Assembly (NCBI GenBank): GCA_000004985.1
Contig: GG738859.1
From: Naegleria gruberi
Lineage: Eukaryota
Strand: one strand, 5' to 3'
DNA length: 64,000 nt
The notes beneath the pieces are model-generated. The model saw only the letters and a list, made by a program, of their open reading frames with translations. It had not been told where the DNA came from and did not search any database. Positions within the stretch are counted from its first letter, which is position 1, and each line of letters begins with the position of its first letter. Below, in pieces: positions 171 through 38,229 of the stretch. A program made the translations under genes and the position numbers.

Positions 171-1019
171 CTATTTATTCGATATAACTTCCAATTTGAT
201 AAACCATCCTCCATCTACAGCTTGTTTTTCATCAGCAGCTCCAACAGGACATGTCCAACCACAATATCCACCCCCAGTCAATGAAATAATTTGGTCATCC
301 TTTGAGAAATTCCAAGTTCCATAACTACAATAACCGTTATGTAAAAAGCTAACACTGAATTTGAAAGGAGTACCACTCAGATCACACATTGCTCTTCCGT
401 CATCGACTGAACCCCCTTCACAACCAAAACAAGTTGCATACGAAACTTCCTTTGTTTTCCAATTATGATGATTACATACGCCAGTTGACTTGGAAAATGT
501 ATGATCTCCTGTATGAATCATTAAAGTTTCTGGATTAATTCTCAATCGATACCAACGAGTTATAATATCAGCATCATTCCAACTCCAGGGTTTTCTTCTA
601 GGAACAGTATAGGTTGAGTAATTATTAGTTGGAGAAGGCAAAATTAAATAGTAACAATTCTTGGCTCCTTGATAGAATGTATATGTTCCATAATTTGGTA
701 TTTCAAATTCTTGATATCTGTACGAACAAGAAACCAAATACCAATTCCAACAAGTCAACTGAAAACTCAAACAAGTCTCCTCATCATTCTCAATAAACCC
801 AAAAATCTCCCTCAATAAATCATCAGGAATTACAAATGTTTCCATCACTGATTTTTTATATTGTGATTCAACACTTTGGAATAATAAATCATTAATATTG
901 GAGAGGAATTGGTGGGATGATGAGGTTGTGGACGTTTCATCAGAATGATGATCCTTCTTGTTGTGATGAGAAGAGGAATTTGATGATGAATTTTTAGAGA
1001 AGAGTTTGCGAAGGACCAT
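171..1019 (-). CDS. F-box domain protein with C-terminal Cys/Trp/Gly-rich (possibly FBA-like) domain
   Basis: 282-aa ORF. A Ser/Asn-rich leader is followed by an F-box-like motif (IPDDLLREIFGFIENDEE...LTCWNWYLV). Then comes a ~180-aa globular C-terminal region rich in Cys, Trp and Gly. No intron is evident in the window. Confidence 0.5.
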   Translation of the reverse strand: MVLRKLFSKNSSSNSSSHHNKKDHHSDETSTTSSSHQFLSNINDLLFQSVESQYKKSVMETFVIPDDLLREIFGFIENDEETCLSFQLTCWNWYLVSCSYRYQEFEIPNYGTYTFYQGAKNCYYLILPSPTNNYSTYTVPRRKPWSWNDADIITRWYRLRINPETLMIHTGDHTFSKSTGVCNHHNWKTKEVSYATCFGCEGGSVDDGRAMCDLSGTPFKFSVSFLHNGYCSYGTWNFSKDDQIISLTGGGYCGWTCPVGAADEKQAVDGGWFIKLEVISNK

Positions 1020-1116: not shown

Positions 1117-1791
1117 TTAATTAGCGAATTGATCATACTGAGCTCTCACAGCAACCATTTGATCAGGATACAACAATCCAACAAATCCCAAAATACCATA
1201 ATAGGAAGCAGATAAAGCTGCAATAATCAAAGCCATCACTAATGGTTTCTTCAATTTATATCCAAGAGCAATATTCAATCCATAAATAGTATGATACAAT
1301 CCACATGCCAATAAGAATCCAAAGAATCCCAAAGCACCTACCATACCCATTTCCTTCTCAGCCACAAAAGCAATTGAAGCAAATGAAGCATTAAATGAAT
1401 TTTTAAATCTATTACCAAAAATGTGCATTGGAATAAGGAATGAAAGAATATATCCAGTAATACTGTGTAATTTCTTTGATAATGAAGCTGTTGCTGCTTC
1501 GACTTCTGCTGCCTTCTTTTGAGTGAATGAGAGAAGTGAATTGACAAACATGTGAACAGCAAGTGGAGCGAATACGACCAAACCCTCAACAATCATATTT
1601 GGTCTATAAATTCCTCTAGTTGTTTCCAGAACAGAATCATATTTCAATGGAGATAAGGCTGCAGAAATAGTTGTAGCCACGTGTAAGGTTACAAAAACTG
1701 AGAAGGTAATTCCCGACCAACGTTGCAATTGCTTCAACATTTTAGGAGGTGGTGATGGTGGAACGGACATTGACTTGGCGCTTTGAGACAT
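1117..1791 (-). CDS. multi-pass integral membrane protein, unknown family
   Basis: 224-aa ORF with about 5-6 hydrophobic helices (e.g. ITFSVFVTLHVATTISAAL, LVVFAPLAVHMFVNSLL, GMVGALGFFGFLLACGLY, LVMALIIAALSASYYGILGFVGLLY). The ATG at 1791 follows an A-rich leader. Confidence 0.5.
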   Translation of the reverse strand: MSQSAKSMSVPPSPPPKMLKQLQRWSGITFSVFVTLHVATTISAALSPLKYDSVLETTRGIYRPNMIVEGLVVFAPLAVHMFVNSLLSFTQKKAAEVEAATASLSKKLHSITGYILSFLIPMHIFGNRFKNSFNASFASIAFVAEKEMGMVGALGFFGFLLACGLYHTIYGLNIALGYKLKKPLVMALIIAALSASYYGILGFVGLLYPDQMVAVRAQYDQFAN

Positions 1792-2269
1792 TTTTTTTAA
1801 GGGTTTTTGTTGTTGAATGTGTTTGTTGAGTGGATGAGAGTGTTTGGAGAATTTTAAATGCTAATTGGAGTTTTATCAATTTAAATTCTACTGTAAAGAG
1901 GTGTGGGTGTATTAAATGGAGAGGGGTTATGTCAGGTAAATGTTGAAAAGGCCTCAAACACGTGTTTTGAATAGTATATTAAGAGAGTGTTTGCTTAATA
2001 TTGTCCATGAAAGTTCACTTTATGAATTCACAAATTTTTACAATGTTAACCATTTCACAATATCAATGGAAGCCTTATCAAAGTAAAAACTTGAAAAACA
2101 ACCATTTTCCATAACAACATTATTGTTGTAAACTATTTAAATAAATGCAAATAAAATCAAAAAAAAATGCAAACTTCAACTGATAACCCCACACAAATCA
2201 ATCAACTCTCAGAACAATTTCTGTTTGCACTTTCTCTTGAAGAATCCAATCCACATCAAATGTTTTCCA

Positions 2270-2360
2270 TGGTGCTAGCCTAAGAGTGGATGTAGTTGGT
2301 GGTGTAGCCGGTAGCCGGTTACAGCCGGATGGTAGTGCGGGTAGTCGGAAGCTGTTGAAT
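2270..2360. repeat. GC-rich degenerate short tandem repeat (GGTAGCCGG-like units)
   Basis: The sequence ggtggtgtagccggtagccggttacagccggatggtagtgcgggtagtcgg carries five or more copies of a 7-9-bp GTAGYCGG unit. It lies in an otherwise AT-rich spacer, directly 3' of the transposase-like ORF. Confidence 0.45.
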
Positions 2361-2400
2361 ACACCTTCAAAGCCAAAAATTAATAATAAAAGTTCTATTT

Positions 2401-4341
2401 TTAAAATTTAACTTTATGAAAATTCATGAAAAACGAGTATTGGTTGAACATTTCTTTGCCAGCAATATTATGAATCAAACATTTACCAATTATTTGATTT
2501 AGTGCAACATAGCCTGTTGTTACATGAATGTTTGAATCAATTAATCTATATCCAATAATTGGATGAACCGAAGAGAGACACTTTTTGATGTTGGTGAAAT
2601 ATACTTTTTGCTCTTTAACCTCAACAAATTGACCAACAAGTAAGGAACCATCCTTTGCCTTAAATAAAATAAATTCTTTGTTTTGTACAATTGGAATCCA
2701 TTTCTTGTTTTCAGATTGATTTCTTACCCAAGGATAATTGATGTTAATTTGTCTTTGAAGTTTTTCAAAATTCGCTCCTCGTTGTTCTAAATTTTTGTGA
2801 TTGGAAGAGTCATTAAATTGTTTGAAAACTTTGTGTTTCAATTCAAAAAGCAATGCCCAGAAGAACCTGGCATTTCCCCACTTCAAACAATCTTCAAAAA
2901 TATGAGAATTCCAATGAAAATTAGGATTTGTAAAATTACCATTACCATATAGGGAAATGACTTGTTTCCTGAAATTGAAATGTTTCAATTTTGCAATTTC
3001 AATGTTTGAAGGTGAAACCAAATCTTGAATCAAAGAAAGTACGTATTCTACGTGATTTGACCAACATATAATATGTTTCTTCTTCAAACTGAATGAAACA
3101 TCACAGTGATTCTTATTATTAATAAGAAAATCATAGATAATTGGGCAACTAAAAACCACGAATTCCAAAAAATGATCTGCTGAACAATCATTGTAATCTT
3201 TTGCAATCATTTTCAAAGGTTTACCATGATTGTTTGTATACTTGTCCATAACAGACTGAAAATCACTTAAAATGTTGGTGTAATTGAAATATTTGAAAAA
3301 TTTTTTAAGGTGTCTCCTTAAATCACCTTGAATAGAACCATGCATTAATTCAACAGTTGAATTTTCAAAAATATCACAATCCTTAATTTGTAAAAACGGA
3401 CACTTCATTTGAGTATTGTTACTTTGTCGAACTTTTTCTTTTACCTGTTTGGATTTTTTGGACTTGGAATCAATCTGCATATCTTTGATTTGAATATCAG
3501 CGACTGTAATAAACTTGTAGCCATTACATGAGGTACCAATTGATAATTTTTGTTGCATTTCAATTGCTTCAGTAACAGTTCTTAAAGGATAGACTAAAGG
3601 TGTTGAAATGTCATTAGGACATTTACAATAATCTCCTTTTGGGCATTTACATTTAGAACATGTATAGCTTTCAAGAAATAATGATAGCCATCTTTGTACA
3701 GAATCCCAAATCCAAGGACCTATTAGAATTCGAATCTTTTCAATTGAATCAGTGTAAGAGTTATAAACATCAATTGATTTTCCATTAATTTCATTCAACT
3801 CTTCAACTAGTTTTGTTGCTAATTTGAATTGGGAAATATTTGTTTTTGAATTTCCTAGTAATGAAATTGATTCCATATTCGAAGTAAGAAAGCTTCGATT
3901 AAAATTCAATAAGGTGAAATATAATCCTGCTGTTTTGTCTGTACCTGTTCTATGTTTTCTAAATTCATCAATATAATACATAATGACAATTGGTGTTTCG
4001 TCTGGTGAACATTTCTTTTTCAATTCTTGAAATCCTTTTGATGCGTATGGTTCATAATTGAATAATGGTTCTTTTGTTAAATCCTCTGGCTTATTACCAT
4101 TATGTATCTTTTTTGCAATAAACGGATCTGCATATAAATATTTGATACAATTTACAACACCATAGTATACATATTGGTCCTGTTCAGTATCATTTTCATC
4201 AATTATTGGTTGTTGAGTTTTGAAATATTTACATCTGGTTTGAATTTGATCGTATGAAAGACATTCTTGACCACATAATTTCAGTATTTCAGTTGTATAA
4301 TTGTATTGTTCTTTTGTAAACTGTTTGGATTTCAACATCAT
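2401..4341 (-). CDS. large Cys-cluster protein, transposase-like (KDZ/Tnp2-like CxC clusters?) or lineage-specific family
   Basis: 646-aa uninterrupted ORF with a clustered Cys motif (YTCSKCKCPKGDYCKCPND) and further CxxC pairs. The size and Cys clusters fit eukaryotic DNA-transposase-derived proteins. No recognisable housekeeping domain. Confidence 0.4.
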   Translation of the reverse strand: MMLKSKQFTKEQYNYTTEILKLCGQECLSYDQIQTRCKYFKTQQPIIDENDTEQDQYVYYGVVNCIKYLYADPFIAKKIHNGNKPEDLTKEPLFNYEPYASKGFQELKKKCSPDETPIVIMYYIDEFRKHRTGTDKTAGLYFTLLNFNRSFLTSNMESISLLGNSKTNISQFKLATKLVEELNEINGKSIDVYNSYTDSIEKIRILIGPWIWDSVQRWLSLFLESYTCSKCKCPKGDYCKCPNDISTPLVYPLRTVTEAIEMQQKLSIGTSCNGYKFITVADIQIKDMQIDSKSKKSKQVKEKVRQSNNTQMKCPFLQIKDCDIFENSTVELMHGSIQGDLRRHLKKFFKYFNYTNILSDFQSVMDKYTNNHGKPLKMIAKDYNDCSADHFLEFVVFSCPIIYDFLINNKNHCDVSFSLKKKHIICWSNHVEYVLSLIQDLVSPSNIEIAKLKHFNFRKQVISLYGNGNFTNPNFHWNSHIFEDCLKWGNARFFWALLFELKHKVFKQFNDSSNHKNLEQRGANFEKLQRQININYPWVRNQSENKKWIPIVQNKEFILFKAKDGSLLVGQFVEVKEQKVYFTNIKKCLSSVHPIIGYRLIDSNIHVTTGYVALNQIIGKCLIHNIAGKEMFNQYSFFMNFHKVKF

Positions 4342-4393
4342 GAAACTATGCCATTCTAATTCATTAGCGAATGGAGCAAACTTATTTGAAGGA

Positions 4394-4639
4394 TCAGTGT
4401 TCTTTTGTAATATGTTTCAACAACGTTTCAGATTTGACACAACTATAATCACATAAACAACATCCAAGTTTTTCCTTAGTAAAATTTTTACACTCAGAGT
4501 TTTCACAGTTACATTTAATTTGAATCTTGAATTTTGCACTTGAAATTGGTTGGTAAAATACTGTGTGTAAAGATTTCTTGCAAGAATCACAGCGTCTTTC
4601 AAAATAGATACCTTGTTCCTTGTTATTTTGTAAAGACAT
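4394..4639 (-). CDS. small C2H2-like zinc-finger ORF, possibly a 5' part of the 2401..4341 transposase-like gene
   Basis: Translated from the first ATG (MSLQNNKEQGIYFERRCDSCKKSLHTVFYQPISSAKFKIQIKCNCENSECKNFTKEKLGCCLCDYSCVKSETLLKHITKEH). It has CxxC...H and C-x-C-x6-C-x3-H-x4-H arrangements. It is on the same strand as the next ORF and 52 bp upstream of it. I found no clean GT-AG intron joining the two. Confidence 0.35.
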   Translation of the reverse strand: MSLQNNKEQGIYFERRCDSCKKSLHTVFYQPISSAKFKIQIKCNCENSECKNFTKEKLGCCLCDYSCVKSETLLKHITKEH

Positions 4640-4710
4640 TTTTTTTCGTCTAAAAACTGGCTTTCGACTGAAAATTCGAATCAAAAAAAACACAATAAAA
4701 AACACAATAA

Positions 4711-5648
4711 ATGCCAGGTAAGTAATTCAACATCAACCTTGTAACTTTTCCATCAACTGCCAATTTTACATCATTTCAGCATCATCACCATCAGTAAAAG
4801 TAAGTAGTTTAGCACCATTTATTCAACATAAATTATTCTAATAACAAAGAAGAAGACTAAATTAACCATAACATGTTTACCAGAAGCCACATATGAAAAG
4901 TTGGCTGACTGTTATCCCAAGGCTGCAGTGGGATGGAAGGATACTTAACGAGCGTAAGTAAGCAAATTGTTAGTTATTTATTTGATTTTATATAGACTAA
5001 AAAGAGAAGTTATGCAATGTATTCGAATTTACTGTAAGCGAAAAGGGATTCCCCAAAATGATACTGCCATGAGTTCATGTAAAGATTGTCTGCAATTAAC
5101 TTTTGGTGAAACATTGTTCAGAAAACATGTTAATGGATTGTCAACGGATACATATAAATACGTGCAAAGTATTGTAAGTGAAGTTTATCCTTAAATTATT
5201 TATTAATTATTTTCCAACAATTAATTAGAGCTATTGTTATGTCAGTAAGATATTCAGCAATCTGTGGAGTTCTTTTAAAAGAAAGAGTCTAATAGAATTA
5301 AAGAAAAAAGAGAAGCCAAAAAGAAAGAAGAATTCCAATGTAGAAGTTTCTAATATAGAAGGGGTTCCATCCTCAATTCAAGCAACAGATATTCAACCTT
5401 CTACCTCTTCACCAACAAGAGAACATGTCAGAGCCAACAATGGTCAATTCTCTTCATTGCAGAGCTATGTTGCAGAAGATGAACAAGTTGTTTTTTTAAC
5501 ACTTGTTAAAGATTGGATCAAAAAACCTGACACAAGAGCAACACAACCTTCAGCAGACGCAATTAATTTGCTTGATATGGAATCAGATGGTGCAGATCTT
5601 TATTCAGATAATGGTCAATCAGACTCAGAAGAAGCACAACAATTGTAA
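4711..5648 (+). other. unresolved small-exon transcription unit (micro-exons ATGCCAG / ...KPHMKSWLTVIPRLQWDGRILNE / Cys-containing exon / acidic C-terminal exon)
   Basis: ATGCCAG is followed by GTAAGT at 4718. There is a TTTCAG acceptor at 4779 and GTAAGT donors at 4800 and 4954. The terminal acidic ORF at 5457..5648 ends in TAA. The exon phases could not be joined consistently by eye. Confidence 0.25.
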
Positions 5649-5743
5649 ATAAATAAATCAGTTTTACTCAAATTATGAAAATTGTAATGGTCAACAGAGT
5701 AAATTAAGGGAAACTTTCAGTCTAATACCAACACACTAAAAGC

Positions 5744-5826
5744 CGCATAGAAACTGAATGTTCACCGAATAGTCACTGAATGTTTACCATATAATAACCG
5801 AATGGTTACTGAATATTTATTGAATA
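5744..5826. repeat. three to four degenerate tandem copies of a ~22-bp motif CCGAATRGTYACTGAATRTTTA
   Basis: The sequence is ctgaatgttcaccgaatagtcactgaatgtttacc...ccgaatggttactgaatatttattgaatagttaccc. It is upstream of the Sel1-repeat gene and may be a regulatory array. Confidence 0.5.
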
Positions 5827-6077
5827 GTTACCCACCAATTTCATTCCTTTACCCAACAATCAACCGACTACCAACCAACTAACACTGAACTAAAACGGTC
5901 AGGCGATTATGGGCTGATATTCGATTAATTTCTGGAAAATCGTTCAGTTATTTTCGGAAACAAGTTGGGGGAAATTAGGGTTGTAGTAGGGTTGTGGATG
6001 GGGTTTAGACGGAACATAGCCAACTAAAAACCAACTATAACACTGTCTATTACCCAAGTACTCCACTCTTAGGAGAG

Positions 6078-7181
6078 TTGGCCACTGTTAAGAATTATCC
6101 ACAAGCATTCAACATCATTTCGGAATGTTATCGAAATCAAGTGGGTGTTCAATATAATGAAGATAAGGTTTTCGAATATGCCATGATGGGATCAGAAAGG
6201 GGTGATTTGATTTCCACATTCTATGTTGGAAATTGTTATAATTTTGGAGTGGGAAGGGAGGTTAATGTAGAACTAGCTATGGAGTGGTATGAAAAGGCAG
6301 CTAATGCTGGTCATGGAATGTCATGCTTTCTTGTGGCAGATAAATGTCATCAGGAAAAGGATTTTGATAATGCAATGAAATGGTATTCGAAAGGAGCAGA
6401 ATTGGGATTGGATTTGTGTTTTCATAGATTAGGATACATGATTGAAAGAGGAGAAGGTTGTGAACGTGATCTAGGAAAGGCATTTGAATGGTTTCATAAA
6501 GCTGCCAATTGTGGAATACCTGTATCCATGTACAGTTTGGGAGTTTGTTACGAAAGAGGAATTGGATGTGAGATTAATGAAAAGAAATCAATGGAGTGGT
6601 ATGTAAAGGCTGCCAGGAAGGGTAATCAACAAGCCAATGCCAAAGTAACATTGAGATGTACAACTGGAATTCGAGGAGATTATGATTTCAAACTTGCATA
6701 CGAATTGTTTTTATTGGATGCAACAGTTAAGAAGACTTTCATTGAATTCTGCTCTTGTTTTGACATGCCCATCTCCAAATTCTACATTGCACAGGAGTTA
6801 TATTATGAAAATGCAAGAAATGATTCTTACAATTCTTTGGAAATTATTGAAATGCTAGAATCAACTCAACAATTATATCAAAGCCAGAATTTGCTAGGGC
6901 TTATTTATTTGGAAGGAAAGATTGTAGAGCAGAATTTTGATTGTGCTTTCAAATTAATTGAGAAAGCAGCAGAATCAAAGAAGGGAAAATGTCTCTTTGA
7001 TTTGGCCATCATGTACCTGTATGGTTATGGTTGTAAAAAGGATTCACTCGAAGCCAGATATCGATTAAAACAATTGGCAATAGAAGAATATCAACCAGCT
7101 ATTGATTTACTTGAAAGGAGTTTCCACTCTGATTTATTGAAGAATCGGCAATATTCTGATTTGATTATTGTTATGAAATGA
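6078..7181 (+). CDS. Sel1-like (TPR-family) repeat protein
   Basis: At least six Sel1 repeats with the signature A-x-x-W-Y-x-K-A-A-x-x-G (AMEWYEKAANAGH, AMKWYSKGAELG, AFEWFHKAANCG, SMEWYVKAARKGN) and repeated G-x-G-C-E/K motifs. The ORF opens at 6078 after a stop. The first in-frame ATG is at 6183, so the 5' end or an upstream exon is uncertain. Stop TGA is at 7179-7181. Confidence 0.75.
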   Translation: MATVKNYPQAFNIISECYRNQVGVQYNEDKVFEYAMMGSERGDLISTFYVGNCYNFGVGREVNVELAMEWYEKAANAGHGMSCFLVADKCHQEKDFDNAMKWYSKGAELGLDLCFHRLGYMIERGEGCERDLGKAFEWFHKAANCGIPVSMYSLGVCYERGIGCEINEKKSMEWYVKAARKGNQQANAKVTLRCTTGIRGDYDFKLAYELFLLDATVKKTFIEFCSCFDMPISKFYIAQELYYENARNDSYNSLEIIEMLESTQQLYQSQNLLGLIYLEGKIVEQNFDCAFKLIEKAAESKKGKCLFDLAIMYLYGYGCKKDSLEARYRLKQLAIEEYQPAIDLLERSFHSDLLKNRQYSDLIIVMK

Positions 7182-7415
7182 TACTTTTTTTTATTAAGGA
7201 ATTAGTTATATATTCAACATGGTGTTTGTTTCATAACTGAAATATTTTCAAGGTATTTAGAAAGATAACAATTTTACAATTTATTGAAAACTTCTTACAG
7301 AACTGGTTTCATTACTGTAATGACATTTATCACATTTCTGAGAAATAGGGCTTATGCAATAAATCCGATTTAATCTGCAATTCAATAGCATTCATCATCC
7401 ATCATTAAAAAAAAT

Positions 7416-7693: not shown

Positions 7694-8740
7694 ATGCAAA
7701 AATCAACACTTTTAACCGCCACATGTCTGTTGATGTGTGTATTACTGTCAATTTTGACAGCCTTCTCTGATGCCTCCTTGAGTGGAACATCATCTGAAGC
7801 TTACGCACTTGCTCACGCATCAGCCAGTAAGAATGAAGTTAAAATTGCCTCTTTCAATATTCAAATTTTTGGTTCTTCCAAAATGGAAAAGAAGAATGTT
7901 TTGGCTGTCATTTTGAAAATTCTCTCCAGATATGATTTAGTATTAATTCAAGAAGTTCGTGATTCTTCCGATACTGCCTTTGCTAATCTTGTAAAAGAAT
8001 TGTCAAATTACAATAAGAATGTCAAGTATGGCTCAGCAATTAGTGAAAGACTTGGAAGAAGTAATTCAAAGGAACAATATGGATTTATTTACAATACTGA
8101 TAAGGTAAAAATGATCAAGACTGTTCAATTTAAGGATACAAAAGGATGGTTTGAAAGACCGCCTTTTGCATTTGTTTTTGAATTGAATGCTGCCAAGTTG
8201 AAAGGTCAACAATTTGCAATTCTTGGATGTCATATTAAACCAGGTGATGTTGTCAATGAATTGAATCATCTTGTTGAAGTTTATGATTCATTCAAGAGTG
8301 AACCATTCTATAAGAATATTATTTTGACTGGTGATTTCAATGCTGATTGTTCTTACTTGTCTGATACTGAAATGAAGAAACTCAAATTGTCCACTGATGC
8401 TAGATTCAAGTGGTTGATTGATATGGACTCAACTGTTGCTGATTCTGAATGTTCATATGATAGATATATTGTTCCAGTTGAACTTTCAGCAAAGAAGCTT
8501 TCCAGTGGAGCTCTCTATGAACTCGGTCAAGCTACCGTTTATAGATATGATAAGGATATGAAGATTACTGATGAAGAATTGGTTGAAGATGTCAGTGATC
8601 ACTATCCAATCGAAATGACAATTACTAGCTCTCAAAACATTGGTCTTTCTTCCAAGACTTTGGCTGATTTGGTCTTTGATGATTTGGTTAAGGAAGAAGG
8701 TGAAGACGATTGGAGAAGAATAAACATGAATCCATACTAA
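7694..8740 (+). CDS. secreted DNase I-like endonuclease
   Basis: 348 aa. It has an N-terminal signal peptide (MQKSTLLTATCLLMCVLLSILTAFS). DNase I family motifs are present (KIASFNIQIFG...YDLVLIQEVRD, FAILGCHIKPGD, LTGDFNADCSY, SDHYPIE). Single exon, stop TAA. Confidence 0.85.
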   Translation: MQKSTLLTATCLLMCVLLSILTAFSDASLSGTSSEAYALAHASASKNEVKIASFNIQIFGSSKMEKKNVLAVILKILSRYDLVLIQEVRDSSDTAFANLVKELSNYNKNVKYGSAISERLGRSNSKEQYGFIYNTDKVKMIKTVQFKDTKGWFERPPFAFVFELNAAKLKGQQFAILGCHIKPGDVVNELNHLVEVYDSFKSEPFYKNIILTGDFNADCSYLSDTEMKKLKLSTDARFKWLIDMDSTVADSECSYDRYIVPVELSAKKLSSGALYELGQATVYRYDKDMKITDEELVEDVSDHYPIEMTITSSQNIGLSSKTLADLVFDDLVKEEGEDDWRRINMNPY

Positions 8741-8800
8741 CTGAATTGTTAATCAATTCGATTGGATTCGAAAATGTTTATTATACACGAATTAGTTTTA

Positions 8801-9400
8801 TTAATAATCAGTTAAATCTGTTAGAATTGAATCATTATCCAATTCGTCATCTGAATCGTCGTCTTGATTCATTTGTGTTTTACCCAATCTAGATGAAGAC
8901 CTAGTAGATGTATTATTAGCGGAATTGAATGAAACATTATTCATTGATTGAGATAATGGTTGTGAAAATGGATTGGAATAATTGAATGTACCAGTTTGAT
9001 AATATGAATTATTGACTCTACAATTAATATTGAAAATTATACTTGGTTGTTGATGTGCTTGTCCATTCCACAGAGATGAAGAACTCATTTCATTAGAGGA
9101 AGTTGAGGATGTGTTACTACTATTGGAGAATGAGGAAGATTGCACAGAGGATGAATCATTAGAATAATGAGGAACATTACCAGTTCCAGAATTAAAGTAC
9201 ACATGAGCCTCTCTCAGTTCTGGACTCCTCTTTACTTGTTTAGTTTGACTCTTTTCAATACCATCATATTGATTCTCACCTCTCTTTCTCTTATTATTGA
9301 ATGAGGAGGAGTCTTGATCTGTGTCCTTACTTTTGGTCATTTGATTGGTTGTTTTTTTTGATGAAATTCTTAATGAAATTGCTCTCATTAAAAAGTGCAT
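8801..9400 (-). CDS. Ser/Asn-rich low-complexity protein with acidic C-terminus, unknown function
   Basis: 199-aa ORF with long S/N/T runs and a DDDSDDELDND tail. It is tail-to-tail with the DNase gene. The true start may be the internal MTKSKD. Confidence 0.4.
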   Translation of the reverse strand: MHFLMRAISLRISSKKTTNQMTKSKDTDQDSSSFNNKRKRGENQYDGIEKSQTKQVKRSPELREAHVYFNSGTGNVPHYSNDSSSVQSSSFSNSSNTSSTSSNEMSSSSLWNGQAHQQPSIIFNINCRVNNSYYQTGTFNYSNPFSQPLSQSMNNVSFNSANNTSTRSSSRLGKTQMNQDDDSDDELDNDSILTDLTDY

Positions 9401-9675
9401 TGTGTGAAATGTCTTAAAATAACCTTACATCACCAATGAAGATTTACATCAATATCGACCATTGAACAACATCCATACAATTCTAAGATGATTGATTCAA
9501 ATTTATATTCAATACAATCTCCACACAGTTCAAGTTCTTGATTTCCCATTACCACTTGTTTCTCTCAAATTCATTTAAAAGTAATCTTTGGAAGTTTATG
9601 GTCGCATGTTCAATTCTTCCATTTATTCGCTAATTTTTTATTCAATTAAAAATTTCAAAAAAAATGTGAAAAAAA

Positions 9676-10818
9676 ATGTCCTCATCTGTCGGCGCTACTC
9701 TTGAAGCTATCAAATATACTCGTGGATCTTTGGAAATTCTTGACCAATTGCTCATTCCGAAGTCATTTATCTATGAAGTTGTTGATACAACTGAAAAGGC
9801 TTTCCATGCCATTAGAGATATGAAAGTTAGAGGTGCTCCAGCTATTGCCATTGTTGCCGTTTTGACCTTGGCTGTTGAAGCTAACCAACTTTTGCAAAGT
9901 AATGATGCTCTCTTGGCTGATGCTTCTGCTATTGCTAAATTATTTAATGAAAAATTGGATAGATTGGCTGAAAGTAGACCAACCGCTGTCAATTTGTTCC
10001 AAGCTGTTGGTGATTTTAAGAATAAGATTGCTCAATCACTTGAAACTAACAAGACTGGTACCGAAATTGTTCAACTCATCATTGATGAAGCTGAAGCCTT
10101 GATGAATAGAGATATTGAAGAAAATGCTAAAATTAGTGAATGTGGTAGTGATCATATCATTTCAACCAATCCATCGAGCACTACTTTGAAAGTTTTGACT
10201 CACTGTAATACTGGTGCTTTGGCTACTATGAAGTATGGTACCGCATTGGGTGTTATTCGTTTCTTGCAAAAGAAGAATGTTTTGGAACATGCCTTCTGTA
10301 CTGAAACTAGACCATACAATCAAGGTGCTAGACTCACTGCTTTCGAATTGGTCTATGAAAAGATTCCATCTACATTGATTTGTGATTCTGCTGTTAGTTA
10401 CTTGTTCAAGACTAAGAAGATTGATGCTATCATTGTTGGTGCTGATAGAGTTTGTAATAATGGTGATACTGCCAACAAGATTGGTACTTATCATATTGCT
10501 GTTAGTGCTAAACATCACGGAATTCCATTCTATGTTGCTGCTCCATTCACATCTATTGATTTGACTCTTGCTTCTGGTGATTTGATTACCATTGAAGAAA
10601 GAAGTGAAAAGGAAATTACTCACTATAGAAATAATGATGAACGTGCTGTTGTTGAAAATATTGGTGTTTGGAATCCAGGTTTTGATGTCACAACTGCTGA
10701 TTTAATTTCTGGTTTCTTTACTGATATTGGTGTTTTCACTCCATTGACCTGTGCCACTACTGGTAAGAAGTATTACGATTTAAAGACTCAACAAGCTGAA
10801 AAGTTGAAACAACAATAA
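9676..10818 (+). CDS. mtnA: methylthioribose-1-phosphate isomerase (eIF2B-related family, methionine salvage)
   Basis: 380 aa. Hallmark motifs of M1Pi/MRI1: LTHCNTGALAT, CTETRPYNQGARLTAFEL, IVGADRVCNNGDTANKIGTY, IPFYVAAP. Single exon, ATG at 9676. Confidence 0.9.
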   Translation: MSSSVGATLEAIKYTRGSLEILDQLLIPKSFIYEVVDTTEKAFHAIRDMKVRGAPAIAIVAVLTLAVEANQLLQSNDALLADASAIAKLFNEKLDRLAESRPTAVNLFQAVGDFKNKIAQSLETNKTGTEIVQLIIDEAEALMNRDIEENAKISECGSDHIISTNPSSTTLKVLTHCNTGALATMKYGTALGVIRFLQKKNVLEHAFCTETRPYNQGARLTAFELVYEKIPSTLICDSAVSYLFKTKKIDAIIVGADRVCNNGDTANKIGTYHIAVSAKHHGIPFYVAAPFTSIDLTLASGDLITIEERSEKEITHYRNNDERAVVENIGVWNPGFDVTTADLISGFFTDIGVFTPLTCATTGKKYYDLKTQQAEKLKQQ

Positions 10819-10855
10819 ATTATTTTCCTATTTCTTTTTTAATATTCATTCCATT

Positions 10856-10886
10856 ACTTATTATCACTTATTATCACTTATTATCA
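10856..10886. repeat. short tandem repeat (cttattatca x3) in 3' flank of mtnA
   Basis: cttattatcacttattatcacttattatca. Confidence 0.5.
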
Positions 10887-10987
10887 TGATGATGACAAAT
10901 AATTATTAATAATAAAACCGATCATCATTATTTTCTTCATGTTCAATTAATCACCATTAATTTGTTAATAATAATAAATTAAAAAAA

Positions 10988-12799
10988 ATGAATTTTCTTC
11001 AATCCTATGGCAGTGATGATGAAGATAATGTAAATAATCAACCAATACAACAACCTAAGCCATTATCATCAAATAGTAATAACAATAATACTTTTACAGC
11101 AGCACCTAATGTTCCTCTTTCCGATAAGAAACAATACATTCTCCCTAAGGATTCAACATCACTTGTATTTAATCCAAAGTATGATGAATTATATGCACCT
11201 AAAGTAGGACCTAAAAATCCATTTGCCACAAGTGATACAAAATTTGATTCGGGATTCATGTTGAATGGCGAGATTAATTCACATAATATGAATACTTATT
11301 TATTTAATAGTCAATATTATAATTACGATGTTTCAAGACAAGGTAATTTATTACCTGGAGGAAGTGCTGAAAGACCTAATTCATCATCAATTCATGTTGG
11401 ATCATCAGCAAATAAAAATAAGAAGAGGAAACAAGATCAACTGGCATCATATTCATCATCAACAAGTAATAATAAGAATGAAAAATACATTGAATTGAAC
11501 GAGAGTGAAGATGCGGAAATTATTTCTGCTTTTGGTGAGGATGCATTCATAGAGGATGAAACAGCTGAGGAACAACATGAAAATATGATTAATGAAATCA
11601 AGTCTCAACACGAGGAACAAATGGCTAGAAGAAAGGAACAAATTAAAGCCCTTAAAGATCAACAATCTGAAGAACAGGATAAAAAGAAAAAGAAGGAAGA
11701 TTTTGGAAAATTACCTGAAATTGCATTCAATGAGGAAACTGAAAAGAAAACATCAACTGAAGGAAAGGATGGATACAGTATTTACCACTTGTCAACTGAT
11801 GTGGATTATCAAGGAAGATCATTCATTTCACCTCCATCTCATCTCAAACCATGTGAATATACTGAGAAGAAATCAGTTCTTCCAAAGAAGTGTATTCATA
11901 CCTATCGTGGACATCAAGATGGTAAAATGGTCACCTCCATTGAATTTTTTCCAGAATATGGTCATCTCTTATTGAGCGGTTCTATGGATTGTACAGTAAA
12001 GATTTGGGATGTTCTAGGCAATAGGGATTGTGTGAGAACCTACGTAGGTCACACCAAAGCTGTCAGAGCATCATCATTCTCCCACGATGGAGCTCAATTT
12101 GCTTCATGTGCCTATGATAAGAGAGTTAATATTTGGGATACCGAAACTGGTAACATACTTCAAACTTTCACCTCTGGTTCGACACCATACTGTGTCAAGT
12201 GGAGTCCTCTCGAAGGCAGACAACATGAAGTTATTGTAGGGTATTCGAATAATAGAATTGTACAATGGGATACTAGGTCAGGAAAGATTGTTCGTAAATA
12301 TGATAGACATACAGGTTCAGTGAATTCTTTGTGTTTCCTTGATGGTGGTAAAAAGTTTGTTTCTAGCAGTGATGATAAATCAATAAGATTATGGGAATAT
12401 GGTGTACCAACTGAGGTTAAGAAAATTGCAGATCCAGAACAACATCCAATGCCATTCTTGGAAGCTCATCCAAATGGAAAGTGGATGATTGCTCAATCTC
12501 TTGATAATCAAATTTTGACATTTGACGCTCAATCAAGATTGAAACAACAACAAAATAAGATATTCAAGGGACATCAAATTGCTGGTTATTCATGTCAAGC
12601 TGGTTTTTCAAATGATGGAAAGTTTGTTTTCAGTGGAGATTACACAGGAAATGTTTGGTTTTGGGATTGGAAAGAGGCAAAACAAATCAAAAAGATGCAA
12701 TGTCATGAAGGAATTGTCATTGGTAGTATTTGGCATCCACTCGATCGATCTCTATTTGCAACCTGTGGTAGTGATAGTACTATTAAACTCTTCCAATAA
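10988..12799 (+). CDS. PRP17: pre-mRNA-processing factor 17 (PRP17/CDC40), WD40 repeat splicing factor
   Basis: 603 aa. An N/S-rich N-terminal region is followed by seven WD40 repeats. They are collinear with CDC40 (CIHTYRGHQDG, SGSMDCTVKIWDV, CAYDKRVNIWDTETG, YCVKWSP, DKSIRLWEYG, HPNGKWMIAQSLDNQILTF, GSDSTIKLF). Single exon. Confidence 0.9.
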   Translation: MNFLQSYGSDDEDNVNNQPIQQPKPLSSNSNNNNTFTAAPNVPLSDKKQYILPKDSTSLVFNPKYDELYAPKVGPKNPFATSDTKFDSGFMLNGEINSHNMNTYLFNSQYYNYDVSRQGNLLPGGSAERPNSSSIHVGSSANKNKKRKQDQLASYSSSTSNNKNEKYIELNESEDAEIISAFGEDAFIEDETAEEQHENMINEIKSQHEEQMARRKEQIKALKDQQSEEQDKKKKKEDFGKLPEIAFNEETEKKTSTEGKDGYSIYHLSTDVDYQGRSFISPPSHLKPCEYTEKKSVLPKKCIHTYRGHQDGKMVTSIEFFPEYGHLLLSGSMDCTVKIWDVLGNRDCVRTYVGHTKAVRASSFSHDGAQFASCAYDKRVNIWDTETGNILQTFTSGSTPYCVKWSPLEGRQHEVIVGYSNNRIVQWDTRSGKIVRKYDRHTGSVNSLCFLDGGKKFVSSSDDKSIRLWEYGVPTEVKKIADPEQHPMPFLEAHPNGKWMIAQSLDNQILTFDAQSRLKQQQNKIFKGHQIAGYSCQAGFSNDGKFVFSGDYTGNVWFWDWKEAKQIKKMQCHEGIVIGSIWHPLDRSLFATCGSDSTIKLFQ

Positions 12800-35731: not shown

Positions 35732-38229
35732 TTAAAGCTCACAAGTTTGATTATCACAAAATCTTTCTGGTGAAGGTTCTTGTTTGATTCTATGTTCAGA
35801 AAGTGGTGATGTTGTTTTCAGTTTTGATCTCATTTCATTGTAAACTTCCTCCGTAATGCTCTCGTATGGCATTTGAGGATAAGGTGATGTATCTTGATCC
35901 ATCATTGGTAAAAAGCTAACTCCTTTGAGTTGATATTGGAAATAGTCAAGAGCATATTGAATCTGTTTACCTTCTGTTTGAGGATTGAAAGTAATAGTTG
36001 CACTGACCTGATTATCAGACCAATACTTTTGTAAAAAGGAAGCCAAAGATAATTGTTCCCACATTGAGAGCTCCTTTGCTGTTCTTATACCCTCTCCACA
36101 ATCTATTGGGAATTCAATAATGGTGGTATTTGGATCAGAGACTGCTGGTTCAGTTTTAAAACCTGCCTCTCTCAATGTTTCTACGAGTGGAGAATTATTA
36201 GCCAATCTCAATCGTCTAATGTAGAATCTCGAAATTGGATAATGCATTCCAGGTGTTGCTCCAGCAAGTAAACTCACAGTACCACTTGGCTTGATAGAGG
36301 TTGTTTTGATGGATCTTGGAATGGCCAACCAATCACTGAATTTCTTATCAAAATCTTGAATACTTTCATAACCCACCGAAGCCCATTTCTTCAATTCATC
36401 AATTCCTCTCTTGGTAATAAATTGTGCGATACCACTCATTGAACAACCAATTCTTCTATTTCTGAGCATTACTCTATTCACATCAGGCCAATGAGTCTTT
36501 CCCAAAGTTACAGTCTTGGCGAATAGGAAGGCATACTTGAGAGTTCTCTGGAAATCTTCCAATGACTCATGATTAGTTGGGAATGTCTCAACAAGACAAC
36601 ATAATTCATAACTTTCCAAAGTTTGTTCCAAACATGGATTACCTCCAGTAGCTCTGAAATCCTTGTTATCCTCAATTCCATTCATTCTAGAGAATTTTCT
36701 CATATTCTCCAAAAAGGCAATACCTGGTTCTCCATTAATTTCCATTCTCTTGGAAACCTTGGTATAATCCATGCCAATATTAGCAAATATAGAGTTGTTT
36801 GAGGTCCAGCCATATGACATTCTATGTGGATTCTTTTCATAATTTTTCAAATCAATAAATTCCTCATCATTAGCTTCACCAAAAGCAATTTCTGCTGATC
36901 TTCTAATATTTCCAGAAACTACACATTTTCCAATATAATTCATCAAATCCACAATATTTGTCACTGTAATTGGTTGTCCAGAACTCTTATCCAAAATAGA
37001 TTTGATATTTTCATGCAATTCTTTAAGAGATTCAGGTCCACTACTAACACCTCCAAATCCTCTAATAATTGCACCAGCTGGTCTAATCTTGCTGTAATCG
37101 AAAACTTGTGGTGCATTTCCGTTGAAATACGAATCTAACAACACTTTTACACTTTCAACCCATCCTTCTCTTGAATCGGCAATTATATTCATTGTTGGTT
37201 GTTTGGAATTGTCAATTCCCTTAATGACTGATATGTTAAATAAATTGAGTTAACAATATTGTTAAATATCAAAAAATAAACATATGAGCAGATTTCAAAA
37301 AACAACTTACCAAAACTTCCAGCTCCCTTTGTATCAAATCCAACTCCTACACCCAACATACTCATATCCATCAAAAAGACAAATGGCTTCAGAGGATCTT
37401 CTTTCATTGATTCTGTACTGACAAATGCACAATTATTAAGAGCTGCATAGAGACCTCTCTGTTCAGTCAATGGTGTTCCCATTCCCCAGAGACCTCTTCC
37501 AGATGGTAAGAATTTCATATTGAAAATTCTGTCATACATTTCCTGAGCAGATCTTTGAGCTTTTCTAGGATTCCAACCCAATTTATGATGCTCAATCCAA
37601 TTCCTTTGCATATTATAAGTACCATTCACAACTCTCTCCACAGTTTCATACCATTCTTCATTTCTATTCTCTTCCTCAATGACTCTTGAATAGGTTCTTT
37701 TATAAACCACTTCTCCGAGTCCATTAAAACCAAATGGTGGAGGTATATTCTTGTACTTTTCCACGAAAGCCTTACTCAACTTGAATCGATGCATATTTGA
37801 ATCATTGGTTACAGTTGTATCAATGGTCATACTGGTAGTTTCCAAATTACGTAGTTTTTTATATAATGTACTAATGTCAGCAGCCACTGATGATGATGTA
37901 TTACCTCCCATCACATCATTCATTAATTGAATATTTGTATGATAATTAAATCCCGAACAAGTCTTTATATTATTCAACATTAGAAATTCGTCATGATTTG
38001 ATTTCCTCCTCAACACAACTCCACCTTGTTTCCTACCAACACTACCCAACAAATATGTTGTTGAAGAGGTAGTAGTTGAGGAAACAACAGATCGTAAAAC
38101 AGTCTTTTGGCACGGTGATGATTTAAACATTTTTTCAAAAAGTTTGATAATTGGTTTTAAATACAAAGAGATTGAATTTTGATTAGGAAGAGATTTTAAA
38201 AGAAAGAGGTATTCTTTTTTGATTCGCAT
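35732..38229 (-). CDS. class II (adenosylcobalamin-type) ribonucleotide reductase, NrdJ-like, with ~150-aa N-terminal extension
   Basis: Two exons: 37311..38229 and 35732..37227. The intron 37228..37310 is 83 nt (GTAAGT...TATCAG). The RNR class II core has the active-site Cys region GGNPCLEQTLESYELCCLVETF and the C-terminal redox Cys pair (CDNQTCEL). The N-terminal region (MFKSSPCQKTVLRSVV...) may be a targeting or regulatory extension. Confidence 0.8.

What the first reader, a model, noticed from the sequence alone, without database searches (positions are those of the whole stretch)
2270..4705. Transposase-like Cys-cluster ORF plus upstream zinc-finger ORF, with a GC-rich mini-tandem repeat at its 3' flank: possible domesticated or recently inserted DNA-transposon gene
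The 646-aa ORF has no housekeeping domain. It carries clustered CxC-type Cys motifs (CSKCKCPKGDYCKCPND), as seen in KDZ/Tnp2/Plavaka-type eukaryotic transposases. A separate 82-aa C2H2-like zinc-finger ORF sits 52 bp upstream on the same strand. The 3' flank (2270-2360) contains an unusual GC-rich GTAGCCGG-type tandem array in an otherwise AT-rich spacer. Together these look like the coding core of a DNA transposon or a domesticated derivative.
Basis: inference. Interest (0 to 1): 0.55.

Follow-up and report, generated by a model that had tools for sequence, protein, structure and literature searches.

The report
Deleted RAG1-like DNA transposon in Naegleria
The two reading frames are the broken halves of one transposase gene inside a complete 3.8-kb cut-and-paste DNA transposon that recently jumped into a Sel1-repeat gene of the amoeboflagellate Naegleria gruberi; this is an ordinary though previously unlabelled mobile element, not a domesticated gene.

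Summary
A 646-aa ORF (2401-4341, minus strand), an 81-aa C2H2 zinc-finger ORF 52 bp upstream, and a small GC-rich repeat patch at 2293-2348 are all present. The host is Naegleria gruberi, not a dictyostelid.

The element spans 2279-6073. It has perfect 12-bp terminal inverted repeats (CCTAAGAGTGGA), a 2-bp AG target-site duplication, and inverted subterminal TAGYYGG repeats. Removing the element restores a 405-aa Sel1-repeat ORF.

Three other N. gruberi genes are about 99% identical in protein. A related 4,392-bp element sits at six N. lovaniensis loci, with a similar TIR and 2-bp duplications.

The window copy has an out-of-frame internal deletion that splits the zinc finger from the catalytic core, so it is probably non-autonomous. 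It is a new member of a known kind, of modest interest.

The parts
2167..2278 (+). 5' piece of the interrupted host Sel1-repeat gene (37 codons plus 1 nt). Its last 2 nt, 2277-2278 (AG), are the left copy of the target-site duplication.
   Evidence: Joining 2167-2278 to 6076-7184 gives one continuous ATG-initiated 405-aa ORF.
2279..2290 (+). Terminal inverted repeat CCTAAGAGTGGA, at the end of the element that lies downstream of the transposase gene. It extends imperfectly to about 21 nt.
   Evidence: It is a perfect 12-nt reverse complement of 6062-6073 and matches the N. lovaniensis TIR CCTAGGAGCAGA at 9 of 12 positions.
2293..2348 (+). Subterminal repeat cluster: four TAGYYGG units (TAGTTGG, TAGCCGG, TAGCCGG, TAGTCGG).
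   Evidence: The window holds 21 matches against 9.7 +/- 3.4 expected (0 of 100 shuffles reach 21). Eight of the 21 lie in the two subterminal regions, in mirror orientation.
2401..4341 (-). Transposase catalytic core ORF (646 aa, NAEGRDRAFT_65790). Key codons: D125 (3967-3969), D213 (3703-3705), C228 (3658-3660), C231 (3649-3651), H476 (2914-2916), H480 (2902-2904), E500 (2842-2844). A C-terminal beta-barrel covers aa about 557-632.
4342..4416 (-). Continuation of the core reading frame upstream of the annotated ATG, with no start codon. It encodes ..KNTDPSNKFAPFANELEWHSF, which is homologous to paralogues, and it overlaps the end of the zinc-finger ORF in another frame.
   Evidence: tblastn of P0099 aa 75-100 matches window 4404-4327 at 96% identity.
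4394..4404 (-). Junction of the internal deletion, where the frame shifts. ZnF frame: ...KEH-TGA. Core frame: KNTDPSN...
   Evidence: About 75 aa of P0099, and about 130 aa of the Willaertia homologue P0008, that lie between the first finger and 'NKFAPF' are absent from the whole window.
4394..4639 (-). N-terminal zinc-finger ORF (81 aa plus stop). It is the first C2H2 finger of the ancestral transposase.
   Evidence: It aligns to the N-termini of the homologues P0008 (E 9e-13), P0016 and P0005. The family profile's N-terminus matches tandem C2H2 proteins in the PDB.
4640..5863 (.). 5' internal region of the element, function unknown. A speculative three-exon gene on the + strand (4893-4957, 4996-5173, 5229-5651; 220 aa) can be drawn with GTAAG donors.
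   Evidence: There is no Pfam hit and no similarity to the N. lovaniensis element, so this model is unverified.
5864..6037 (-). Subterminal repeat cluster at the other end: four TAGYYGG units on the minus strand (5864, 5875, 6020, 6031).
6062..6073 (-). Terminal inverted repeat (TCCACTCTTAGG on the + strand), at the end of the element that lies upstream of the transposase gene.
6074..7184 (+). Right copy of the 2-bp target-site duplication (AG, 6074-6075), followed by the rest of the interrupted Sel1-repeat gene (6076-7184).
   Evidence: Pfam Sel1 E 1.7e-42. The annotated model P0116 is 331 aa and starts at an internal Met.

Best explanation
Window 2279-6073 is one complete copy of a young cut-and-paste DNA transposon of Naegleria gruberi. 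Its transposase belongs to the DDE group that contains EnSpm/CACTA (Pfam Transposase_21/Tnp2 and DUF4218), Plavaka, Mirage, Chapaev, Transib and RAG1. This group is called the 'CMCT' clade.

In the full-length family the protein has five parts:
- two N-terminal C2H2 zinc fingers, inferred to recognise the transposon ends, probably the subterminal TAGYYGG repeats;
- a linker;
- a RAG1-like RNase-H-fold catalytic core with D125, D213 and E500;
- a structural zinc site, C228/C231/H476/H480;
- a small C-terminal beta-barrel.

The enzyme is inferred to excise the element at its 12-bp terminal inverted repeats and to reinsert it with a 2-bp staggered cut.

The window copy inserted into the 5' coding region of a Sel1-repeat gene and duplicated an AG dinucleotide. 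It carries an internal, out-of-frame deletion that removed the second finger and the linker. That deletion leaves an 81-aa zinc-finger ORF and a 646-aa core ORF in different frames. This copy is therefore most likely unable to make a working transposase. Because its ends are intact, full-length copies elsewhere in the genome could still move it.

Shown here: homology, fold, motifs, TIRs, TSD, copy number and the deletion. Inferred: catalysis, which DNA the fingers bind, and mobilisation in trans.
For: Identity and copy number
- The 646-aa ORF is NAEGRDRAFT_65790.
- Its 90% identity cluster holds three more N. gruberi genes on other scaffolds, 99.2% identical where they overlap: 382/385 and 243/245 for the two fragments P0098 and P0100, and 5 differences in 646 aa for P0099.

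Family membership
- An exhaustive HMMER scan finds 76 relatives, 33 of them at E <= 1e-10.
- The only transposase-related Pfam families among the 79 aligned members (the 76 hits, which include the window's own record, plus the window ORF and 3 added relatives) are DUF4218 (6), Transposase_21 (4), Plavaka (3) and DUF1258 (3).
- hhalign of the family profile against a Tnp2-positive protein that is not in the profile gives probability 99.5%, E 6.8e-23, over 426 columns. The D, D, CxxC, MH, HxxxH and FE columns are in register.

Motifs and fold
- Invariant or near-invariant columns are D125, D213, C228, C231, H476, H480 and E500. [quoted passage not shown]
- The AlphaFold2 model has pLDDT 85 and pTM 0.84.
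- The top 22 Foldseek hits are all RAG1 or HzTransib, best E 3.5e-11.

Element ends
- A perfect 12-bp inverted repeat lies at 2279-2290 and 6062-6073, flanked by AG on both sides.
- TAGYYGG clusters sit in mirror orientation at both ends.
- Excision restores a 405-aa Sel1-repeat ORF. The annotated Sel1 model is N-terminally truncated.

Related mobile family
- The N. lovaniensis relative occurs at six loci with unrelated neighbours. It is a 4,392-bp unit, 99.7-99.95% identical between copies, with TIR CCTAGGAGCAGA and 2-bp TSDs in all six copies.
- Its transposase frame is open for 888 codons and includes both fingers.

Deletion
- The zinc-finger ORF aligns to the N-termini of homologues.
- The linker present in P0099 and in Willaertia P0008 is absent from the window.
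Against: - Pfam gives no hit on the window protein itself, even at E <= 1. The link to named transposase families is therefore indirect, through relatives, a profile and structure.
- A 12-nt inverted repeat in the search space used has a chance expectation of roughly 0.2-0.3 on its own. One unrelated A/T-run 12-mer was found in the same search. The boundary call rests on the combination with the TSD, the resemblance to the N. lovaniensis TIR, the subterminal repeats and the restored ORF.
- The termini are 5'-CC..GG-3', not the 5'-CA..TG-3' usual for the clade.
- The DNA of the other N. gruberi copies could not be fetched, so the ends were not confirmed by aligning copies within N. gruberi.
- No paralogue of the Sel1 gene spans the junction, so there is no true 'empty site'.
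- No expression or activity data are available.
Confidence: 0.9

Rival explanations
1. The 646-aa ORF is a domesticated, transposase-derived host gene kept by selection for a cellular function. The zinc-finger ORF is a separate host gene.
For: The 646-codon frame is fully open and all catalytic and zinc-site residues are intact even though the DNA-binding N-terminus is lost. Related sequences occur in three Naegleria species and in Willaertia.
Against: Copies about 99% identical in protein lie on other scaffolds. Perfect TIRs and a TSD are still present, and the insertion interrupts a host ORF. The closest N. lovaniensis relative of this sub-family is split into three fragment genes. The core frame continues upstream of the ATG without a start codon, which is what a fresh deletion would leave. 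An open frame is expected in a copy this young and needs no selection to explain it.
Confidence: 0.04
2. The copy is still autonomous. Either the finger and the core are joined by +1 ribosomal frameshifting at CAC-UGA-U (4399-4393), or the two products work together as separate polypeptides.
For: The two frames overlap over 4394-4416, and a +1 shift at the UGA stop gives ...KEH-DPSNKFAPF.... The TIRs are perfect.
Against: The 99%-identical paralogue P0099 and the Willaertia and N. lovaniensis homologues carry about 75-130 more residues (second finger plus linker) in one frame at this position. The junction therefore looks like a deletion scar, not an evolved recoding site. No stimulatory structure was looked for or found.
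Confidence: 0.04
3. The element is a KDZ (Kyakuja-Dileera-Zisupton) type transposon. The Cys cluster is a CxC domain, as the first reader suggested as one option.
For: The sequence contains a run of cysteines, CSKCKCPKGDYCKC.
Against: No KDZ or CxC Pfam family is hit by any of the 79 family members. Only C228 and C231 are conserved. The TSD is 2 bp, whereas KDZ elements make 7-8 bp (PMC12730594). The fold and motif order match RAG1, Transib and EnSpm.
Confidence: 0.01

Closest known systems
CMCT clade of DNA transposons (EnSpm/CACTA, Mirage, Chapaev, Transib, Plavaka, ESTA, Lanisha; RAG1 derives from Transib), as defined in Kojima 2025, PMC12730594
   Same: [quoted passage not shown] TSD within the 2-5 bp range (2 bp here). 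Short TIRs. Sequence link to Pfam Transposase_21, DUF4218 and Plavaka through relatives and a profile. RAG1/Transib-like fold.
   Different: The termini are 5'-CCTA..TAGG-3' rather than 5'-CA..TG-3'. The window protein itself is below every Pfam threshold. The N-terminus carries twin C2H2 fingers, and the C-terminus is predicted to be an Sm/Tudor-like beta-barrel. Which sub-lineage it belongs to was not resolved.
Plavaka transposons of fungi (Pfam PF18759)
   Same: Three of the 79 family members, including P0030 (phmmer E 1.5e-13 to the window protein), pass the Plavaka Pfam threshold. PlavakaA also makes 2-bp TSDs.
   Different: Plavaka termini are TGT..ACA or CATCA..TGATG. Plavaka is fungal and often carries TET/JBP genes; no such gene is present here.
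RAG1 and RAG1-like (ProtoRAG) and Transib transposases
   Different: Sequence identity is 9-11%. Transib and RAG make 5-bp TSDs. There is no RAG2-like partner and no heptamer/nonamer ends.
CMC-EnSpm repeats reported by RepeatModeler in the Naegleria lovaniensis genome (Liechti et al. 2018, PMC6125883, Table 3: 38 pieces, 69.8 kb)
   Same: Probably the same or sister families. The 4,392-bp six-copy element characterised here is in that genome.
   Different: That paper gives only an automated class label. It does not describe termini, TSDs, protein architecture or N. gruberi copies.

Membership tests
CMCT clade (EnSpm/CACTA-Mirage-Chapaev-Transib-Plavaka) DNA transposon | DDE catalytic triad on an RNase-H-like, RAG1/Transib-type core | tested here: met
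   [not shown]
CMCT clade (EnSpm/CACTA-Mirage-Chapaev-Transib-Plavaka) DNA transposon | [quoted passage not shown] | tested here: met
   C228-x2-C231 and H476-x3-H480 are conserved. The definition is from PMC12730594.
CMCT clade (EnSpm/CACTA-Mirage-Chapaev-Transib-Plavaka) DNA transposon | Direct match of the protein to a curated family model (Transposase_21, Plavaka, DUF4218) | tested here: not met
   Pfam hmmscan finds 0 families at E <= 1. The link is made only through relatives and by hhalign at probability 99.5%.
CMCT clade (EnSpm/CACTA-Mirage-Chapaev-Transib-Plavaka) DNA transposon | Terminal inverted repeats and a 2-5 bp target-site duplication | tested here: met
   A 12-bp perfect TIR and a 2-bp AG TSD in the window. 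Six of six 2-bp TSDs in the N. lovaniensis relative.
CMCT clade (EnSpm/CACTA-Mirage-Chapaev-Transib-Plavaka) DNA transposon | Termini 5'-CA..TG-3' (true 'in most cases') | tested here: not met
   The termini are 5'-CCTA..TAGG-3' in both Naegleria families.
Mobile (non-domesticated) element | Several near-identical copies at unrelated genomic sites | tested here: met
   Three further N. gruberi genes at about 99% protein identity on other scaffolds. Six N. lovaniensis copies with different neighbours. The DNA of the other N. gruberi copies was not obtainable.
EnSpm/CACTA sensu stricto | 3-bp TSD and CACTA/CAC termini | tested here: not met
   2-bp TSD and CCTA termini.
Plavaka | Termini TGT..ACA (A) or CATCA..TGATG (B), with 2 or 2-3 bp TSD, and a PF18759 match | tested here: inconclusive
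   The 2-bp TSD fits. The termini do not fit. PF18759 is hit by 3 of the 79 family members but not by the window protein.
Transib / RAG1 | 5-bp TSD | tested here: not met
   2-bp TSD. The fold resemblance is strong, so the protein works like RAG1 and Transib but is not a member.
KDZ (Kyakuja-Dileera-Zisupton) | KDZ transposase and CxC domains; 7-8 bp TSD | tested here: not met
   No KDZ or CxC Pfam hit in 79 members. The TSD is 2 bp.
Domesticated transposase gene | Single copy, loss of TIRs, conserved syntenic orthologues | tested here: not met
   The family is multicopy and the TIRs and TSD are intact. Synteny is not testable with these tools.

The most novel reading that the evidence does not exclude
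Probability: 0.2. Interest if true: 0.5.

Novelty: new member of a known kind. Interest (0 to 1): 0.3.

Why it matters
1. It puts a name and a mechanism on a set of Naegleria 'predicted proteins' that have no Pfam domain: NAEGRDRAFT_65790, 51042, 71659, 76741, 76420 and 64044, and many N. lovaniensis C9374_ genes.

2. It corrects two gene models:
- The transposase is split by a deletion.
- The Sel1-repeat gene model is truncated because a transposon sits in its 5' coding region.

3. It shows that young, probably still mobile RAG1-like cut-and-paste elements exist in Heterolobosea. These could be of practical use as transposon tools in Naegleria, and they add a data point on the spread of the RAG1/Transib/EnSpm group.

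4. It is a caution that 'no transposase HMM hit' does not exclude a transposase.

None of this overturns current understanding.

Tried and rejected
- **Pfam and PDB sequence searches of the 646-aa ORF.** No hits.
- **Word-index homology search.** It found only the protein itself. Repeating it with the family alignment added one unrelated-looking hit, so that search was wasted.
- **Intron joining the two ORFs.** The only upstream GT is at 4424. The possible introns of 23, 44, 69 and 79 nt are too short, out of phase, or would delete the finger's histidines (reasoned). Rejected.
- **Paralogue or repeat inside the 64-kb window.** None by tblastn or blastn.
- **RNA gene or structured RNA in the GC-rich patch.** No tRNA in the whole window. 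In 1700-5400 Rfam's only hit lies outside the patch: sno_ZL63 at 3751-3808, 23.1 bits against a gathering score of 50. Fold z-scores of -0.45 and +0.33 are no better than shuffles. Rejected.
- **TIRs in the first 1800-5400 scan.** Only A/T-rich chance pairs appeared.
- **TIRs on metagenome contigs L001-L003.** None convincing.
- **DNA of the other N. gruberi copies.** Not on record.
- **Exact scan of metagenome contigs for the terminal 20-21 nt.** No match.
- **Second gene on the opposite strand.** A three-exon 220-aa model can be drawn. It has no Pfam hit and no similarity to the equivalent region of the N. lovaniensis element or the metagenome loci. A model starting at ATG 4712 never gives an open frame. 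Left as speculative.
- **Reconstruction of the annotated 187-aa N. lovaniensis gene.** Failed.
- **TIR-like 11-mer CTACGAGTGGA at 36181, 38551 and 41366.** It lies inside ordinary coding regions with no further similarity. About 20 such triple 11-mers are expected by chance in a window this size. Rejected as related ends.
- **hhalign of A1 against P0030.** Not independent, because P0030 is part of A1. Not used as evidence.
- **afdb50 fold library.** Unavailable.
Full report
**What is there.** The window is Naegleria gruberi. The 646-aa ORF at 2401..4341 (minus strand) is 100% identical to the NCBI 'predicted protein' NAEGRDRAFT_65790 / XP_002679140.1.

- The Cys-rich string CSKCKCPKGDYCKCPND is present at aa 228-244.
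- A second ORF at 4394..4639 (minus strand, 81 aa) lies 52 bp upstream. It ends in a canonical C-x2-C-x12-H-x4-H finger.
- The 'GC-rich array' is small. TRF reports 2.3 copies of GTAGCCG at 2304-2319. GC is 0.415 for 2201-2400, against 0.34 for the whole window.

**The protein is a transposase that standard models miss.** Pfam gives no family at E <= 1 for the 646-aa protein. PDB sequence search gives nothing. The word-indexed homology search returns only the protein itself.

An exhaustive HMMER scan of 1.84 billion representatives finds 76 relatives, 33 of them at E <= 1e-10. Full-length relatives are 830-930 aa and match the query from about their residue 220-400 onward. Named sources include N. 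gruberi, N. lovaniensis, N. fowleri and Willaertia magna. The rest are short metagenome contigs.

I aligned 79 sequences: the 76 hits (one of which is the window's own record), the window ORF, and 3 added relatives. The only transposase-related Pfam families among them are DUF4218 (6), Transposase_21/Tnp2 (4), Plavaka (3) and DUF1258 (3). No KDZ or CxC family appears. A profile of the family aligns to a Tnp2-positive protein that is not in the profile (P0067) with hhalign probability 99.5%, E 6.8e-23, over 426 columns.

**Motifs and fold.** In a 16-sequence alignment the invariant or near-invariant positions are D125, D213, C228, C231, H334, H476, H480, W495, E500 and H503. The order is D..D..C(2)C..H(3)H..E, with E 20 residues after the second H. 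[quoted passage not shown]

The cluster is therefore not a KDZ-type CxC domain.

An AlphaFold2 model built on this alignment is confident (pLDDT 85, pTM 0.84).
- Foldseek against the PDB: the top 22 hits are all RAG1 or Helicoverpa Transib, with best E 3.5e-11 over about 620-640 columns.

**The two ORFs are one broken gene.** The zinc-finger ORF aligns to the N-termini of homologues whose C-terminal parts match the 646-aa ORF: Willaertia P0008 residues 1-84 (E 9e-13), P0016 and P0005. The family profile's N-terminus matches tandem C2H2 proteins in the PDB.

The frame of the 646-aa ORF stays open upstream of its ATG to 4416. There it encodes KNTDPSNKFAPFANELEWHSF, which is 96% identical to residues 75-100 of the paralogue P0099. 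This stretch overlaps the end of the finger ORF in a different frame.

P0099 (741 aa, NAEGRDRAFT_51042) differs from the 646-aa ORF at only 5 residues (99.2% identity). It carries about 75 additional upstream residues. These align to the linker of the Willaertia protein and are absent from the whole window. In Willaertia about 130 residues separate the first finger from 'NKYFPF'.

No plausible intron joins the frames (reasoned). The simplest reading is an out-of-frame internal deletion with its junction at about 4394-4404.

**It is a complete, bounded element.** I first defined a related family. The N. lovaniensis protein P0086 is about 28% identical to the window protein. It is encoded at six loci on six contigs with unrelated neighbours.

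- The shared unit is 4,392 bp at 99.7-99.95% identity.
- It ends in CCTAGGAGCAGA / TCTGCTCCTAGG and is flanked in all six cases by a 2-bp duplication: AT, AA, TT, TT, AA, TT.
- Its transposase frame is open for 888 codons and includes both fingers.

A perfect 12-nt inverted repeat, CCTAAGAGTGGA, lies at 2279-2290 and 6062-6073. Four further observations support it as the element's ends:
- It matches the N. lovaniensis TIR at 9 of 12 positions.
- It is flanked by AG at 2277-2278 and at 6074-6075.
- It extends imperfectly to about 21 nt.
- It is followed on both sides by clusters of TAGYYGG in mirror orientation: four at 2293-2348 on the plus strand and four at 5864-6037 on the minus strand. The window holds 21 matches in total against 9.7 +/- 3.4 expected, and 0 of 100 shuffles reach 21.

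A 12-mer inverted repeat alone is not significant in this search space. My estimate of the chance expectation is about 0.2-0.3, and one A/T-run pair of the same length was also found. The conjunction of all these features is what makes the case.

**Insertion site.** Deleting 2279-6075 (the element plus one AG) joins 2167-2278 in frame to 6076-7184. The result is a single ATG-initiated 405-aa Sel1-repeat protein (Pfam Sel1 E 1.7e-42). The public gene model for this locus is only 331 aa and starts at an internal Met. That is what one would expect if the annotation pipeline met a transposon in the 5' coding region. No homologue spans the junction, so this supports the boundaries but does not prove them.

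**Age and mobility.** Three other N. gruberi genes on different scaffolds are 99.2% identical to the window protein where they overlap: P0098 382/385, P0100 243/245, and P0099 with 5 differences in 646 aa. More distant paralogues also exist (P0077 and P0002, about 35-38% identity). This, the perfect TIRs and the still-open halves of the disrupted host gene all point to a recent insertion, not to a domesticated gene.

**How it most likely works.** By homology, the full-length protein binds the ends through its C2H2 pair and cuts and rejoins DNA with the DDE site. The C2-H2 zinc site holds the core together, as it does in RAG1 and Transib. Insertion uses a 2-bp stagger.

The window copy cannot make that protein. 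It encodes a free 81-aa finger and a finger-less 646-aa core, and the core is translated only if the internal Met at 4341 is used. It is probably a non-autonomous deletion derivative that full-length copies could mobilise. These functional steps are inferred, not shown.

**Comparison and novelty.** The element meets the protein-level and TSD criteria of the CMCT clade. It fails the usual CA..TG termini and has no direct Pfam match. It is not EnSpm in the strict sense (3-bp TSD, CACTA ends), not Transib (5-bp TSD) and not KDZ. Its relation to Plavaka and Mirage, which also make 2-bp TSDs, is unresolved.

RepeatModeler already lists 38 'CMC-EnSpm' pieces in N. lovaniensis (PMC6125883), so the presence of this class in Naegleria is not new. 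The termini, TSD, protein architecture, the N. gruberi copies and this gene-disrupting insertion were not described in the papers I could search.

Verdict: a new member of a known kind, well supported, of modest interest.

Noticed in passing
window 6076-7184 (+) with 2167-2278 (+): The public gene model for the Sel1-repeat protein (P0116, 331 aa) starts at an internal Met. The ORF restored by removing the transposon is 405 aa. The reference annotation is probably truncated by the insertion.
   Followed up: partly
L004-L009, locus coordinates 8327-12718 (N. lovaniensis GCA_003324165.2): A 4,392-bp transposon is present in six copies, 99.7-99.95% identical, with TIR CCTAGGAGCAGA and 2-bp TSDs. 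The annotated 742-aa protein starts at an internal Met of an 888-codon open frame that also encodes two C2H2 fingers. A 187-aa gene is annotated on the opposite strand in two of the copies (locus 8778-9480).
   Followed up: partly
[not shown]
   Followed up: no
window 4893-5651 (+): Several GTAAG(T) donor-like sites and open frames on the strand opposite the transposase allow a three-exon 220-aa model with a Cys/His-rich start and an acidic tail. It has no Pfam hit and no detectable similarity to the same region of the N. lovaniensis element.
   Followed up: partly
window 36181, 38551, 41366: The 11-mer CTACGAGTGGA, which resembles the TIR, occurs three times, each time inside an ordinary coding region and with no further similarity. 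I judged this to be chance.
   Followed up: yes
window 35732-37192 (-) and 37189-38229 (-): Two long ORFs of 486 and 346 aa abut with a 4-nt overlap. The downstream one contains a GGNPCLEQ...CCL motif that I recall from B12-dependent (class II) ribonucleotide reductases. This may be one gene split by an intron or a frameshift. I did not test it.
   Followed up: no
window 171-1019 (-), 1117-1791 (-), 7694-8740 (+): The neighbouring genes look like ordinary host genes: a protein with a GON-domain hit just above Pfam's cutoff and sub-threshold F-box hits, a small membrane protein with sub-threshold succinate-dehydrogenase-cytochrome-b-like hits, and a secreted DNase I-like Exo_endo_phos protein.
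   Followed up: no
L001 (JGI 3300038658), the P0004 contig (GCA_041447075.1), L002: The metagenome contigs that carry the closest full-length relatives (863-883 aa) have small ORFs on the opposite strand just upstream of the transposase. This is the same layout as in the Naegleria elements. L001 is extremely AT-rich. The source organisms are unknown.
   Followed up: no
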